Source of the DNA: an uncultured Candidatus Peribacteria bacterium
GTDB taxonomy: Bacteria; Patescibacteriota; Gracilibacteria; Peribacterales; Peribacteraceae
Direction: 5' to 3'
DNA length: 26,484 bases
Assembly (NCBI GenBank): GCA_964443095.1
Contig: CAYUBO010000001.1
Span: forward strand, 1 to 26,484
Numbering within the stretch: position 1 is the first letter of the stretch; each line of letters begins with the position of its first letter. Of this stretch, positions 10,685 through 13,288 are shown in pieces. The position numbers were made by a program, and so were the translations under genes. Under the pieces are notes generated by a model. The model had not been told where the DNA came from and did no database searches. It saw nothing but the letters and a program-made list of their open reading frames with translations.

Positions 10685-10726
10685 GAGCCGAATTTAGCTT
10701 CCATTAGCCATTTTCCCCAAATCACC

Positions 10727-11053
10727 ATGGCAGACAGCGACCTCACAGTAACCATCCAGCCTATCGGAGATAGAGTGGTTGTACGCCCTCTTGAGCGTGA
10801 ACAGGTTACGAAATCGGGCATTGTTATTCCTGATACAGCTTCTGAAGATAAACCTCAGGAAGGAGAAGTTATTGCTCTTGGAGAAGGAAACGTTGGGAAA
10901 GACTGCATTAACCCTAAAGACTTCCTGAAGGTCGGAGACAAAGTTCTCTTTGGTCGCTACGCCGGTGATGATGTGAAATTAAAAACTAAAGATGGAAAAG
11001 AAGTGGAAGTAAAAATTCTCCACGGCGATTCCATTTTAGGAAAAGTATCCTAA
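10727..11053 (+). CDS. groES: Co-chaperonin GroES
   Basis: IQPIGDRVVV, TKSGIVIPDTA mobile loop, LKVGDKVLFGRYAG. Confidence 0.97.
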   Translation: MADSDLTVTIQPIGDRVVVRPLEREQVTKSGIVIPDTASEDKPQEGEVIALGEGNVGKDCINPKDFLKVGDKVLFGRYAGDDVKLKTKDGKEVEVKILHGDSILGKVS

Positions 11054-11088
11054 TCCCTAATCCCTACTCCCTAATCCCTACTCCCTAA
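11048..11088. repeat. Heptamer tandem repeat TCCCTA(A/C) x5 plus a partial copy
   Basis: TCCTAA TCCCTAA TCCCTAC TCCCTAA TCCCTAC TCCCTAA fills the groES-groEL spacer. Confidence 0.95.
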
Positions 11089-11092
11089 TAAC

Positions 11093-12742
11093 ATGTCAGC
11101 AAAACAATTAATATTCGGATCCGACGCCCGCGATAAGATATTGGAAGGTGTAAAGAAGCTTGCCGATGCCGTGCGAGCAACAATGGGTCCAAAAGGACGC
11201 AACGTAATTATTGAAAAGACATACGGTGGACCAACTGTTACCAAGGATGGTGTTTCTGTTGCGAAGGAGATTGAGCTAGAAGACAGGTTCGAGAACATGG
11301 GTGCTCAACTTGTTAAAGAAGCCGCAACCAAGACTAATGACGCAGCCGGTGATGGAACCACAACCGCTACCGTTCTCGCGCACGCAATTATGGAGGAAGG
11401 TCTTAAGCATTTGACCAAAGGTGCAAACGCTATCTCCATCAAACGTGGAATTGATAAGGCAGTTGAGGTTGTTGTTGAAGAACTGGAGAATATGAAAAAA
11501 GATATTTCAAGCAGAGACGAGTACAAGGCTGTTGCAAATATTTCCGCACAGGATGAAGAGATTGGTGAAGTTATTGCAGATGTTATTGATGATGCCGGAA
11601 AGGACGGCGTTATTACCGTTGAGTCCGGTCAAACTATGGGAATTGAGAAGGAGTACGTAGAGGGAATGCAGTTTGATAACGGATACATCTCTCCATACTT
11701 TGTGACTGACACGGGAAAGATGGAGGCAACCTTCGAGAATGCTTCTATTTTGATTACTGATGCAAAGGTTAGTTCGATTAAAGAGCTTCTCCCACTTCTT
11801 GAGGGATTGGCTCAGACAGGAAAGAAGGAATTGGTGATTTTGGCGGAAGACATTGATGGCGAAGCTCTTGCGACCCTCGTTGTAAACAAGCTTCGTGGAA
11901 CATTTAACACTCTCGCGATTAAGGCTCCTGCATTCGGTGACCGACGAAAGGATATGCTCAAAGACATTGCCGCTCTTACAGGTGGTCGTGTTATCAGTGA
12001 GGAAGTTGGTCTCAAGCTTGAGAATGCCTCAGTTGAAGATCTTGGTAATGCACGCAAAGTTGTAGCAAGCAAAGATAACACTTTAATTGTTGGATCAGGA
12101 GAACATGAGAAAGATGTAACAACACGTGTGAATGAGATCAAATCATCTCTTGATGCAGCAAAGTCAGACTTCGATAAAGAGAAACTTCACGAGCGCCTGG
12201 CTAAGCTAACCGGTGGAGTAGCTGTAATTAAAGTTGGTGCCGCAACTGAAGTTGAGCAGAAGGAACGTCAGCATCGCGTTGAAGATGCTCTCTCTGCAAC
12301 TCGAGCAGCAGCCGAAGAAGGAATTCTCCCTGGTGGTGGTGTTGCTTACATTCGTACTCTTGCTGCCCTCGAAAAACTGAAGATTGAAGGTGATGAAGAT
12401 GAGCAGATTGGTGTGGAGATTGTTAAGAACGCTCTTACTGCTCCAACATTCCACATTGCAACTAATGCCGGTGAGGCCGGTGACGTTGTTGTTGATAAGG
12501 TTAGAAAGGGAAAAGATGGTGATGGATTTAACGCTCTCACCGGCAAATATGAGGACTTGGTGAAAGCAATGGTTATTGATCCAAAGAAGGTCACACGATC
12601 TGCCCTGCAAAATGCAGCATCTGTGGCTTCTATGTTCCTCACTCTCGAAGCAGCAATTTCCGATATTCCTAAAGAGGATGACGGTGCCGCTGCGGCAGCA
12701 GCTGCAGCTGCAATGGGAGGAGGCGGAATGATGGGAATGTAG
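11093..12742 (+). CDS. groEL: Chaperonin GroEL
   Basis: [44 protein letters not shown] and a GGM tail. Confidence 0.99.
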
Positions 12743-12761
12743 GTCTAAAGATCAAAATAAG

Positions 12762-12785
12762 GCCCCTGCGAGAGCGGGGGCTTTT
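12762..12785 (+). terminator. groESL intrinsic terminator
   Basis: GCCCCTGC-GAGA-GCGGGGGC then TTTT: 8 bp with a GNRA loop. Confidence 0.85.
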
Positions 12786-12794
12786 AAAATCCCC

Positions 12795-12824
12795 TAGACA
12801 AAGCCAAAAAGTCCACTGTATAGT
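12795..12824 (+). promoter_or_regulatory. Promoter TAGACA-N18-TATAGT for the micro-lipoprotein at 12855
   Basis: Read directly; lies just after the groEL terminator. Confidence 0.6.
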
Positions 12825-12854
12825 ATCTCCCAATTCGTTTTTCCCCATCCATCC

Positions 12855-12983
12855 ATGAAAAAGTTTATTGCAATCTCCAGCGTCTTGCTGCTCACAGCAT
12901 GCCAGGCACAGGTCGCACCGGAAGGTGAAGCACCTGAGGTAGAAGGAGAAGAGGCAGCTCAGGAAGAAGTCGTAGAAGAGTAG
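12855..12983 (+). CDS. 42-aa acidic micro-lipoprotein (not in ORF track): MKKFIAISSVLLLTACQAQVAPEGEAPEVEGEEAAQEEVVEE
   Basis: Lipobox LTA-C; N-terminus clearly paralogous to 13064..13288; has its own promoter and terminator. Confidence 0.85.
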   Translation: MKKFIAISSVLLLTACQAQVAPEGEAPEVEGEEAAQEEVVEE

Positions 12984-13006
12984 TCTTTCTCACCCTTACA
13001 GATACT

Positions 13007-13029
13007 AAAGCCCCTATTTCGGGGCTTTT
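13007..13029 (+). terminator. Intrinsic terminator after the acidic micro-lipoprotein
   Basis: AAAGCCCC-TATTTC-GGGGCTTT-T. Confidence 0.85.
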
Positions 13030-13030
13030 C

Positions 13031-13039
13031 TGTTATACT
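13031..13039 (+). promoter_or_regulatory. Extended -10 (TGt-TATACT) for 13064..14355
   Basis: Immediately after the terminator and 24 nt before ATG 13064. Confidence 0.6.
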
Positions 13040-13063
13040 CAAATCACTTAACCCCTTTGATGT

Positions 13064-13288
13064 ATGAAAAAACTCATCGCAATTACAAGTGTTTTGTTTC
13101 TAACGGCCTGTCAGGCACAAATAGTTCCCGAAGGGGCTCCTGATGAGGAACCACAAGACGGACAAGCATTTAATGAATGCGGAACTAACGGTGTTAAGTG
13201 TTCATGTAACAAGCTCGTTGCAGTAGATGACACAGCTCCCAGCAAAGGAGGTTGTGGATGTGGCAGTAAGTCCTGCAGGAGAATCTAG
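13064..13288 (+). CDS. 74-aa lipoprotein with Cys-rich C-terminus
   Basis: Lipobox LTA-C; six further Cys arranged as C-x6-C-x-C and C-x-C-x4-C. Confidence 0.85.
   Translation: MKKLIAITSVLFLTACQAQIVPEGAPDEEPQDGQAFNECGTNGVKCSCNKLVAVDDTAPSKGGCGCGSKSCRRI

What the first reader, a model, noticed from the sequence alone, without database searches (positions are those of the whole stretch)
10711..13066. C-rich motif at Shine-Dalgarno distance: CCCC-N8-ATG instead of AGGAGG
Leadered genes lack SD and carry its opposite. groES (TTTTCCCCA-aatcacc-ATG) and the 12855 gene (TTTTCCCCA-tccatcc-ATG) share the same 9-mer at identical spacing; 13064 has CCCC exactly 8 nt before ATG; groEL has TCCC-7-ATG; the 4681- gene has TTCCTCC-6-ATG, literally the anti-SD sequence. 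Fixed spacing suggests a positive signal (altered 16S 3' tail or a protein-read initiation element) rather than mere purine avoidance, but this rests on only about five genes.
Basis: partly seen in the sequence, partly recalled or inferred. Interest (0 to 1): 0.7.

Follow-up and report, generated by a model that had tools for sequence, protein, structure and literature searches.

The report
C-rich box replacing Shine-Dalgarno sites
In this uncultured marine Peribacteraceae (ultra-small, CPR) bacterium and its whole family, about a third of the genes that have an mRNA leader carry a UUUCCCC box 8 bases before the start codon, where a Shine-Dalgarno site would normally sit; it is most likely an undescribed ribosome-docking signal whose reader is still unknown.

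Summary
In the 1.22 Mb genome, TTCCCC lies exactly 8 nt before an ATG 34 times, against about 9 at other spacings. With called starts, TTCCCC peaks at -15 (30 observed, 1.8 expected). SD-like words are depleted. The box (consensus cUUUCCCCu, -16..-8) fits about 33% of the 457 genes without a leaderless-type promoter. These include EF-Tu, EF-Ts, GroES, ClpB, GAPDH, enolase, HU and several ribosomal proteins. It is as frequent in operon-internal genes as in first genes, and there it can lie inside the upstream ORF. It is sequence-specific: other pyrimidine hexamers are not enriched. It was enriched in all 16 family genomes searched, including two at 60% GC. An outgroup carries UUAAY at the same place.

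The genome's own 16S tail reads CUUCC instead of CCUCC. Nothing in the probable mature tail complements the box. Pairing with the downstream GGGAA trailer is geometrically awkward and shows no covariation.

The best reading is a positive, SD-position translation-initiation element read by something other than the anti-SD. bS1 is the leading candidate but is unproven. The scan has already found similar C-rich boxes in other Peregrinibacteria and in a Parcubacteria genome. I found no published description.

The parts
10711..10719 (+). C-box TTTTCCCCA of groES (CCCC 10715-10718, 8 nt before ATG 10727)
   Evidence: Read directly. Motif-model posterior 0.99. Pfam Cpn10 for the gene.
10635..10661 (+). 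CIRCE-like inverted repeat (TTGGCACTC-N9-GACTGCTAG) with a TATAAA -10-like hexamer in its loop. It places the groES transcription start about 70 nt upstream of the ATG, so the box lies in a leader.
   Evidence: Read directly. groES orthologues in relatives show the order CIRCE, then box, then ATG. A perfect CIRCE sits directly before the clpB box on contig C42.
10727..11053 (+). groES (Cpn10)
   Evidence: Pfam PF00166, E 1.4e-22.
11048..11092 (+). groES-groEL spacer: heptamer array (TAATCCC/TACTCCC) of box-like UCCC units. The last TCCC (11082-11085) is 7 nt before the groEL ATG.
   Evidence: Read directly. Relatives carry comparable TAACCC/CTCC arrays before groEL.
11093..12742 (+). groEL (Cpn60)
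   Evidence: Pfam PF00118, E 9.5e-74. 71-75% identity to the GroEL of the ten nearest Peribacteria-type MAGs.
12795..12824 (+). Sigma-70-like promoter TAGACA-18-TATAGT of the 42-aa lipoprotein gene. The predicted leader is about 24 nt and contains the box.
   Evidence: Promoter scan, 10 of 12 matches.
12838..12847 (+). C-box TTTTTCCCCA (CCCC 12843-12846, 8 nt before ATG 12855)
12855..12983 (+). 42-aa lipoprotein-like gene
   Evidence: ORF and signal/lipobox-like N-terminus read. No Pfam match.
13048..13055 (+). TTAACCCC box (CCCC 13052-13055, 8 nt before ATG 13064)
13064..13288 (+). 74-aa Cys-rich lipoprotein-like gene
   Evidence: No Pfam match above cut-off.
4688..4694 (-). TTCCTCC box 6 nt before ATG 4681. 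A second in-frame ATG at 4636 is also preceded by CCCC-N8.
   Evidence: The N-terminus read from 4681 looks like a lipoprotein signal peptide, which favours 4681 as the start (inference).
4181..4681 (-). 166-aa gene with a weak RskA_C-like match
   Evidence: Pfam PF10099, 28.4 bits, just under the 29.4 cut-off.

Best explanation
The UUUCCCC box (consensus c-U-U-U-C-C-C-C-u at -16..-8, so 8 nt lie between the last C and the AUG) is a cis-acting translation-initiation signal in the mRNA leader. It takes the place and the spacing of a Shine-Dalgarno site in a lineage (Peribacteraceae, Peregrinibacteria/CPR) that no longer uses SD:anti-SD pairing.

Genes here fall into two main classes. About 37% are leaderless, with an extended -10 box ending 6-7 nt before the ATG. 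The rest are leadered or operon-internal, and about a third of those carry the box, notably the most heavily used housekeeping genes.

I infer that the 30S subunit is positioned on these mRNAs by recognition of the single-stranded pyrimidine box on the platform/exit side of the subunit. The recognition does not use the anti-SD core. The most likely reader is protein, with the four-domain bS1 as first candidate.

Shown by computation: the motif, its spacing, its sequence specificity, its independence from promoters, its conservation across the family, the loss of the canonical anti-SD, and the absence of a complement in the probable mature tail.

Inferred: that it acts in translation, and who reads it.
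For: 1. Position-locked peak that does not depend on gene calling: TTCCCC-N8-ATG 34 against about 9. With called starts it is 30 against 1.8 expected.
2. Sequence-specific. Among the 64 pyrimidine-only hexamers, only UnCn types are enriched (TTCCCC 16x, TTTCCC 8.5x; CTCTCT and TTTTTT 0.6-0.8x).
3. A ZOOPS motif model assigns the box to 33% of the 457 genes without a leaderless-type -10 box (147 at P>0.5). Motif start is at -16 in 48%.
4. Independent of transcription-unit position. The strict box is found in 10.2% of operon-internal genes (gap <=25 nt), 7-13% of other classes, 0.9% of internal in-frame ATGs and 2.1% of shifted windows. By contrast the -10 box drops from 41% (divergent) to 20% (operon-internal).
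5. In the ribosomal-protein cluster the boxes of S17 and L14 lie inside the overlapping upstream ORFs.
6. No fixed -10 or -35 partner. Only 14 of 97 box genes have a strong -10-like site within 85 nt.
7. At clpB and groES the box lies downstream of CIRCE, where SD sits in other bacteria.
8. Carriers are core, heavily used genes, confirmed by Pfam: EF-Tu, EF-Ts, GAPDH, enolase, MetK, HU, SSB, thioredoxin, ClpB, GroES, S15, S17, L14, NusB, GreA, PNPase, YchF, V-ATPase A and I, pilin.
9. Conserved across the family. All 16 f1 genomes are enriched (1.8-8.6x over the reversed-pattern control). The same TTCCCC peak at -15 appears in G001 and G024 despite 60% GC. Pyrimidine boxes precede the groES/groEL orthologues.
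10. SD is not in use. G is depleted and GGAG/GGAAG are under-represented. The anti-SD core is CUUCC in this genome, and CCUCC, UCUCC, CUUCC or UUUCC in relatives.
11. Ca. Peribacter riflensis is listed as 'SD-scarce, lacking CCUCC' in PMC10783764.
12. A bS1 with about four S1 domains is present in all 31 family genomes searched.
Against: - There is no expression, transcription-start or ribosome-footprint data. No RNA run held the window.
bS1 is generally described as a flexible, low-specificity binder of A/U- or pyrimidine-rich RNA, which fits poorly with a +/-1 nt spacing.
- Two thirds of the leadered genes lack a recognisable box, so it cannot be obligatory.
- My starts come from a home-made caller whose start model could reinforce the motif. 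The first-ATG and call-free analyses give the same peak, which limits this concern.
- Family genomes are related, so the 16 of 16 result is not 16 independent confirmations.
Confidence: 0.62

Rival explanations
1. The box is a true base-pairing site. The mature 16S rRNA of this family keeps the trailer AGGGAA/AGGGAG that lies 7 nt past the anti-SD core, and UUCCC of the mRNA pairs with GGGAA. On this view it is a relocated, re-coded Shine-Dalgarno interaction.
For: GGGAA follows the tail in this genome (...CUUCCUUACCAGGGAAUUUUU). AGGGAR is invariant in all 10 family tails read. UUCCC:GGGAA would give 5 Watson-Crick pairs. Three low-depth contigs from RNA libraries run through this trailer, though contigs cannot show mature ends.
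Against: - The fourth C, present in 53-60% of boxes, would face an A. U, which would pair, is present in only 20%.
- Genomes with an AGGGAG trailer (G001, G024) still use UUCCCC, and CUCCCC shows no spacing peak, although it would pair better.
- The same GGGAG trailer occurs in outgroups without box enrichment (G038, G028).
- The trailer is explained by a hairpin with the anti-SD. The first stem base covaries C-G/U-A in 10 of 10 family tails, and other class members show other compensated variants. That is the pattern of a precursor structure.
- By homology with E. coli the mature end would fall before CCAGGGAA (my knowledge of the E. coli 3' end).
- Geometry (inference): a partner 11 nt further 3' in the rRNA should put the mRNA site about 11 nt further upstream than an SD, not at the SD position.
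Confidence: 0.1
2. There is no specific reader. The box is the extreme of a compositional preference for G-poor, unstructured pyrimidine leaders, as in SD-independent initiation that depends on low structure around the start.
For: G is depleted over the whole -14..-1 stretch. Spacers and flanks of the box are also G-poor. Many leadered genes have only weak T/C-rich versions.
Against: - The positional peak is sharp (spacing 8 +/- 1).
- Enrichment is restricted to U-run-then-C-run words, while equally pyrimidine-rich words are not enriched.
- The same hexamer is kept at 44% and at 60% genomic GC.
- An outgroup with equally G-poor leaders has UUAAY at that position instead.
Confidence: 0.1
3. The box acts at another level than initiation. 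It could be a DNA element for transcription (an alternative-sigma -10-like element or regulator site giving short or no leader). Or it could be an RNA processing, stability or Rho-loading (C-rich, G-poor) site placed at gene starts.
For: - It occupies the same coordinates (-15..-9) as the -10 box of the leaderless class and is mutually exclusive with it.
- In 9 of 97 box genes a -10-like hexamer ends 23-28 nt before the ATG, so the transcript would begin just before the box.
- C-rich, G-poor RNA is what Rho prefers (my knowledge).
Against: - The box is equally frequent in operon-internal and overlapping genes, where promoters are not expected.
- It has no upstream partner element at fixed distance.
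- It lies downstream of CIRCE operators at clpB and groES.
- Its register is tied to the ATG, not to any mapped start.
- The exclusivity with the -10 box is trivial, because the two occupy the same bases.
Confidence: 0.1

Closest known systems
Shine-Dalgarno / anti-Shine-Dalgarno ribosome-binding site
   Same: A short motif in the leader at a fixed short distance (8 nt here) before the start codon. It is present in first and operon-internal genes alike and is strongest in heavily used genes. At CIRCE-regulated clpB and groES it sits exactly where SD sits in other bacteria.
   Different: The motif is pyrimidine (UUUCCCC) rather than purine. It has the same sense as the anti-SD, not its complement. 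The anti-SD core is itself mutated (CUUCC here, four variants in the family), while the box stays constant. No complement exists in the probable mature tail.
SD-independent initiation of Bacteroidetes (A-rich 'Kozak-like' context; anti-SD sequestered by bS21/bS18/bS6; PMC7797042, PMC3155529)
   Same: A lineage-wide absence of SD use, with the signal placed around -11..-15 in leadered mRNAs.
   Different: Bacteroidetes keep a canonical CCUCC and need bS21 to hide it. Here CCUCC is mostly lost, and bS21 was not found in this genome or in 20 of 30 relatives (3 of 31 genomes over the cut-off; also PMC9297842). The preferred bases are U and C, not A.
bS1-dependent pyrimidine/AU-rich translational enhancers (E. 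coli S1 target sites upstream of SD; from my knowledge, Boni et al. 1991)
   Same: A single-stranded, pyrimidine-rich leader element. bS1 is encoded in every family genome searched.
   Different: Known S1 sites are loosely positioned, U/A-rich and act together with an SD. This box is C-rich, narrowly spaced and stands alone.
C-rich or anti-SD-sense boxes noted earlier in this scan (e1-2956311 and e1-3091960 in other Peregrinibacteria; e1-4412113 in a Parcubacteria genome)
   Same: A pyrimidine box in place of SD in CPR genomes without SD use, with an unknown reader. e1-4412113 reports the same UUUCCCC word at 6-10 nt.
   Different: - Those Peregrinibacteria boxes are CCUCC, 1-6 nt from the start.
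- The Parcubacteria box is limited to about 14 accessory genes and is absent from relatives.
- Here the box is family-wide and sits on core genes.
- These are unchecked AI notes, and part of e1-2956311 was later marked as fallen.
UUAAY leader motif of other Gracilibacteria-class families (e1-5286911; seen here in G026 and in groES/groEL orthologues)
   Same: The same position (-15..-11), the same SD-less background and the same class of bacteria.
   Different: The sequence is different. The two motifs replace each other between families, which suggests a co-evolving reader (inference).

Membership tests
Shine-Dalgarno ribosome-binding site | Motif is complementary to the 3' tail of the organism's 16S rRNA | tested here: not met
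   The own tail is ...GGAACACUUCCUUACC. The box UUUCCCC has the same sense. Complements of the tail (GGAAG, GGAG) are depleted at -20..-5.
Shine-Dalgarno ribosome-binding site | Fixed short spacing (about 5-10 nt) to the start codon, in first and internal cistrons | tested here: met
   Spacing is 8 +/- 1 nt. The strict box is in 10.2% of operon-internal genes against 0.9% at internal ATGs.
Shine-Dalgarno ribosome-binding site | Conserved CCUCC anti-SD core in 16S rRNA | tested here: not met
   CUUCC in this genome. CCUCC in only 1 of 9 relatives' tails read.
Bacteroidetes-type SD-independent initiation | SD motifs absent from leaders | tested here: met
Bacteroidetes-type SD-independent initiation | A-rich context (-3, -6, -11..-14) | tested here: not met
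   At -15..-9 the preferred bases are T then C. A is not enriched except through the -10 box of the leaderless class.
Bacteroidetes-type SD-independent initiation | Canonical anti-SD kept but sequestered with the help of bS21 | tested here: not met
   The anti-SD is mutated. PF01165 gave no match in this 81%-complete genome and none in 20 of 30 relatives.
bS1-dependent leader enhancer | bS1 with several S1 domains encoded | tested here: met
   A 480-aa protein matches rpsA model positions 3-347 (3 S1 stretches by Pfam, about four S1 domains by model coverage) on contig C42. Present in 31 of 31 family genomes.
bS1-dependent leader enhancer | bS1 binds the element and stimulates initiation | not testable with these tools
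   Needs binding and translation assays.
Leaderless mRNA | -10 box ending 6-8 nt before the start codon | tested here: not met
   Box genes lack it (1 of 70 have both). About 37% of the other genes of the genome do have it.
Promoter element | Fixed distance to a partner hexamer and dependence on transcription-unit position | tested here: not met
   The anchored profile is flat upstream of the box. Frequency is the same in operon-internal genes.

The most novel reading that the evidence does not exclude
UUUCCCC is read by a dedicated, so far unknown site of the Peribacteraceae ribosome or by a ribosome-associated factor. One possibility is the platform pocket that elsewhere holds the pyrimidine anti-SD tail, so that the mRNA box acts as an anti-SD mimic. 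This would be a third kind of bacterial mRNA docking, beside SD pairing and leaderless entry. The UUAAY box of sister families would then be an alternative specificity of the same reader.
Probability: 0.3. Interest if true: 0.9.

Novelty: new variant of a known kind. Interest (0 to 1): 0.72.

Why it matters
Start-site selection in bacteria is taught as SD pairing, leaderless entry, or structure-poor A-rich leaders. A conserved, narrowly spaced C-rich box on the core genes of a whole family would be a further kind of ribosome-binding signal, in a lineage whose anti-SD has drifted.

It makes three things testable:
- What replaces SD pairing once it is lost.
- How signal and reader co-evolve, given UUUCCCC in this family and UUAAY in its sisters.

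There is also a practical use. A box model together with the leaderless promoter model should improve start-codon calls in CPR metagenome bins, where SD-based gene finders have nothing to work with.

Tried and rejected
1. Complement elsewhere in 16S. The only GGGGAR conserved in family 16S genes is the universal h24 segment, so there is no lineage-specific partner.

2. h45-linker pairing. The linker GGAA (GGAUCA changed to GGAACA in the family) gives only 4 bp and would need a spacing of about 1-3 nt, so I dropped it (geometry is inference).

3. Covariation of the box with the trailer (GGGAG against GGGAA): none. CUCCCC shows no peak in any genome.

4. This genome's bS1 ends in a Cys-less domain that resembles Ada_Zn_binding and 'sunset' domains, all below cut-off.
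- In 13 of 15 family genomes the domain is fused to bS1. In other families it sits in separate 147-262 aa open frames; the one read (G026) is membrane-anchored.
- G012 and G002 have a bS1 without the domain and still show box enrichment, so it is not required.

5. Platform proteins. bS18 and uS11 show no family-specific extension by open-frame length.

6. RNA evidence. No RNA holder was listed for the window. For the 16S tail, only runs sharing 2 of 41 words were found. Laying four metatranscriptome contig sets on a relative's 16S tail gave no verdict on the mature 3' end.

7. Second spacing class. An apparent TTCCC-N13-ATG peak is mostly made of non-genes.

8. Unrestricted motif model. An EM run seeded with the box drifted into the -10 box. 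I had to remove the leaderless class first.

9. G127. This fetch was too fragmented (75 kb) to be informative.

10. Literature. Searches found the anti-SD loss in Peribacter (PMC10783764) and the bS21 loss (PMC9297842), but no description of a C-rich box. The search covered only the held library.
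Full report
WHAT THE WINDOW IS

The window is contig C1 of a 1.22 Mb metagenome-assembled genome (165 contigs, 81% complete, 44% GC). The ten nearest GroEL neighbours (71-75% identity) are almost all MAGs named Candidatus Peribacteria, Peribacteraceae or Peribacter (Peregrinibacteria, CPR). Runs holding the DNA are marine. The flagged stretch holds groES and groEL (Pfam Cpn10 and Cpn60) and two tiny lipoprotein-like genes.

THE OBSERVATION

Within the window alone the count is not beyond chance. CCCC-N8-ATG gives 5 matches against 2.0 expected, and 8 of 100 shuffles reach 5.

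I therefore took the whole genome.

- Without any gene calling, TTCCCC is followed by ATG at a spacing of exactly 8 nt 33-34 times, against about 9 at other spacings. The reverse complement shows no such peak.
- With about 830 first-ATG starts, CCCC begins at -12 in 22 genes against about 2 per position. The most enriched 5-mers in -20..-1 are TTTCC, TTCCC and TCCCC.
- With starts refined by an iterative coding plus start-context model, TTCCCC at -15..-13 is 30 against 1.8 expected.
- No purine motif is enriched. G drops to 0.08-0.13 at -12..-7.
- GGAG, and GGAAG (the complement of this genome's own tail), are 2- to 7-fold rarer at -20..-5 than in a control window.

TWO CLASSES OF START REGION

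The k-mer peaks separate into two sets.

- The first set is TTGAC at about -36 plus an extended -10 box (TGnTAnAAT) ending 6-7 nt before the ATG. This is the signature of leaderless genes and fits about 37% of genes.
- The second set is the C-box.

After removing the leaderless class, a ZOOPS model gives the consensus c-T-T-T-C-C-C-C-t. It fits 33% of 457 genes (147 at P>0.5, 67 at P>0.9), and the motif starts at -16 in 48% of cases.

The signal is sequence-specific. Among pyrimidine-only hexamers in the peak window, TTCCCC is 16-fold enriched, and CTTTCC, TCCCCC and TTTCCC are 8- to 11-fold enriched. CTCTCT, TTTTTT, CCTCTT and TCTCTT are at or below expectation.

TRANSLATION SIGNAL, NOT PROMOTER

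- A strict form of the box occurs in 10.2% of operon-internal genes (same strand, gap <=25 nt) and 7-13% of the other classes. It occurs at 0.9% of internal in-frame ATGs and in 2.1% of shifted windows.
- The -10 box behaves as a promoter should: 41% in divergent genes, 20% in operon-internal genes.
- In the ribosomal-protein cluster on C16, the boxes of S17 and L14 lie inside the overlapping 3' ends of the preceding ORFs. S19, L22, S3, L16 and L24 carry weaker versions.
- Anchoring on the box shows no partner hexamer at fixed distance.
- Only 14 of 97 box genes have a strong -10-like site within 85 nt. In 9 of these the transcript would start just before the box.
- At clpB a perfect CIRCE operator is followed directly by CCTCCCC, then 9 nt, then the ATG. 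At groES a CIRCE-like repeat with a -10-like hexamer in its loop lies about 70 nt upstream. Relatives show the same order: CIRCE, box, ATG.
- The 42-aa gene has a sigma-70-like promoter (10 of 12 matches) that predicts a leader of about 24 nt containing the box.

WHO CARRIES IT

Pfam confirmed the following carriers: GAPDH, enolase, MetK, EF-Tu, EF-Ts, HU, SSB, thioredoxin, ClpB, GroES, S15, S17, L14, NusB, GreA, PNPase, YchF, V-type ATPase A and I, and a pilin. Many lipoprotein-like genes also carry it. I chose recognisable genes for annotation, so this is a list and not an enrichment test.

CONSERVATION

- The pattern TTCCCC-N7-9-ATG exceeds its reversed control in all 16 family genomes searched (1.8- to 8.6-fold; about 1250 against about 320 in total). 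Most other families of the class lie at 1- to 2.5-fold. Related genomes are not independent samples.
- In 400 kb samples of two family genomes with 60% GC (G001, G024), the same TTCCCC peak at -15 and the same leaderless -10 box appear.
- groES and groEL orthologues of Peribacteria-type MAGs have T/C-rich boxes in this place. Orthologues of other Peregrinibacteria and Gracilibacteria have TTAAC.
- The outgroup G026 (another family, canonical anti-SD) has no SD, no C-box peak, and TTAAT/TTAAC at -15.

THE 16S TAIL

The genome's 16S gene is not assembled. Its last 50 nt do open contig C103, reading ...GGAUGGAACACUUCCUUACCAGGGAAUUUUU. The anti-SD core is therefore CUUCC.

Nine relatives read as follows:
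- CCUCC: 1 genome.
- UCUCC: 3 genomes.
- CUUCC: 3 genomes.
- UUUCC: 2 genomes.

All are followed by UUACCAGGGA(G/A). The first base of CUCC/UUCC covaries with the last base of GGGAG/GGGAA in 10 of 10 tails. Other class members show other compensated variants (GCCU...AGGC, UCUCU...AGAGA). The anti-SD region therefore forms a short hairpin with the trailer, at least in the precursor.

PMC10783764 already lists Ca. Peribacter riflensis as SD-scarce without CCUCC. PMC9297842 reports frequent loss of bS21 in Peregrinibacteria. Consistent with this, I found no S21 match in this genome or in 20 of 30 relatives.

WHAT READS THE BOX

The probable mature tail has no G and cannot pair with UUUCCCC. The trailer GGGAA could pair with UUCCC, but several points count against this:

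- The fourth C would face an A.
- Genomes with a GGGAG trailer still prefer UUCCCC, and CUCCCC shows no peak.
- Outgroups with the same trailer lack the box.
- A partner 11 nt further 3' in the rRNA should move the mRNA site upstream of the SD position, and it is not moved (inference).

No lineage-specific G-run exists elsewhere in the 16S.

bS1 with about four S1 domains is universal in the family. It is the most plausible protein reader, because S1 is known to bind single-stranded pyrimidine-rich RNA near the mRNA exit. That statement rests on my own knowledge and was not tested here.

A family-typical C-terminal Ada/sunset-like domain on bS1 looked promising. However, G012 and G002 lack it and still have the box. 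bS18 and uS11 are ordinary. No RNA data could be brought to bear.

VERDICT

The most likely reading (confidence 0.62) is a non-SD, SD-position translation-initiation element of leadered and internal cistrons, conserved in Peribacteraceae, with an unidentified reader.

The rivals each get about 0.1:
- Pairing with an untrimmed 16S trailer.
- Mere pyrimidine composition.
- A transcriptional, processing or Rho-related role.

The scan has met related C-rich boxes before on other DNA (e1-2956311, e1-3091960, e1-4412113), as well as the altered Peribacter tail (e1-2532235). I found no published description of the box in the held library.

Noticed in passing
whole genome; in the window e.g. starts at 1181, 8248, 22163: About 37% of genes have an extended -10 box (TGnTAnAAT) ending 6-7 nt before the start codon, with TTGAC near -36. 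This indicates pervasive leaderless mRNAs. The same is seen in G001 and G024.
   Followed up: partly
G000 contig C103 (L193) 1-60, and the 16S loci L001-L012 and L093-L102: The anti-SD region pairs with the trailer just after it (CUUCCU/AGGGAA). Compensatory changes were seen in 10 of 10 family tails, and other compensated variants occur elsewhere in the class. This looks like a conserved hairpin that masks the anti-SD, at least in pre-16S rRNA.
   Followed up: partly
L193 (contig C103) 60-450: The 16S gene is not followed by a 23S gene. A strong GC hairpin (about 135-177) and then protein-coding sequence follow, and Rfam finds nothing on the contig. The rRNA genes appear to be unlinked.
   Followed up: no
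window 11048-11092: The groES-groEL spacer is a heptamer array (TAATCCC/TACTCCC) made of box-like UCCC units. Relatives have comparable TAACCC/CTCC arrays before groEL. It may be a multiplied C-box.
   Followed up: partly
L184 (contig C42) 3240-4682, minus strand: bS1 carries an E/K-rich linker and a C-terminal Cys-less domain of about 45 aa that resembles Ada_Zn_binding/'sunset' domains (below cut-offs). The domain is fused to bS1 in 13 of 15 family genomes. In other families it is found in separate 147-262 aa open frames; the one read (G026) is membrane-anchored. It is absent from the bS1 of G012 and G002.
   Followed up: yes
L144-L163 (G026) and groES/groEL loci L023-L041: Sister families of the class carry TTAAT/TTAAC at -15..-11 in place of the C-box, also without SD use. 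This includes genomes with a canonical CCUCC tail.
   Followed up: partly
window 10635-10661; contig C42 upstream of clpB: CIRCE operators are present: a perfect one before clpB and a degenerate one before groES. In groES orthologues the -10 hexamer lies inside the CIRCE loop, so the repressor would occlude the promoter itself.
   Followed up: no
window 4636-4694, minus strand: Two in-frame ATGs (4681 and 4636) are each preceded by a C-rich box at the right spacing. The longer form encodes a lipoprotein-type signal peptide.
   Followed up: no
L179 (contig C16) 2715-3155, minus strand: Ribosomal protein S17 is 146 aa, with the Pfam domain in residues 6-74. Its long C-terminal extension contains, in its coding sequence, the box of the overlapping L14 gene.
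   Followed up: no
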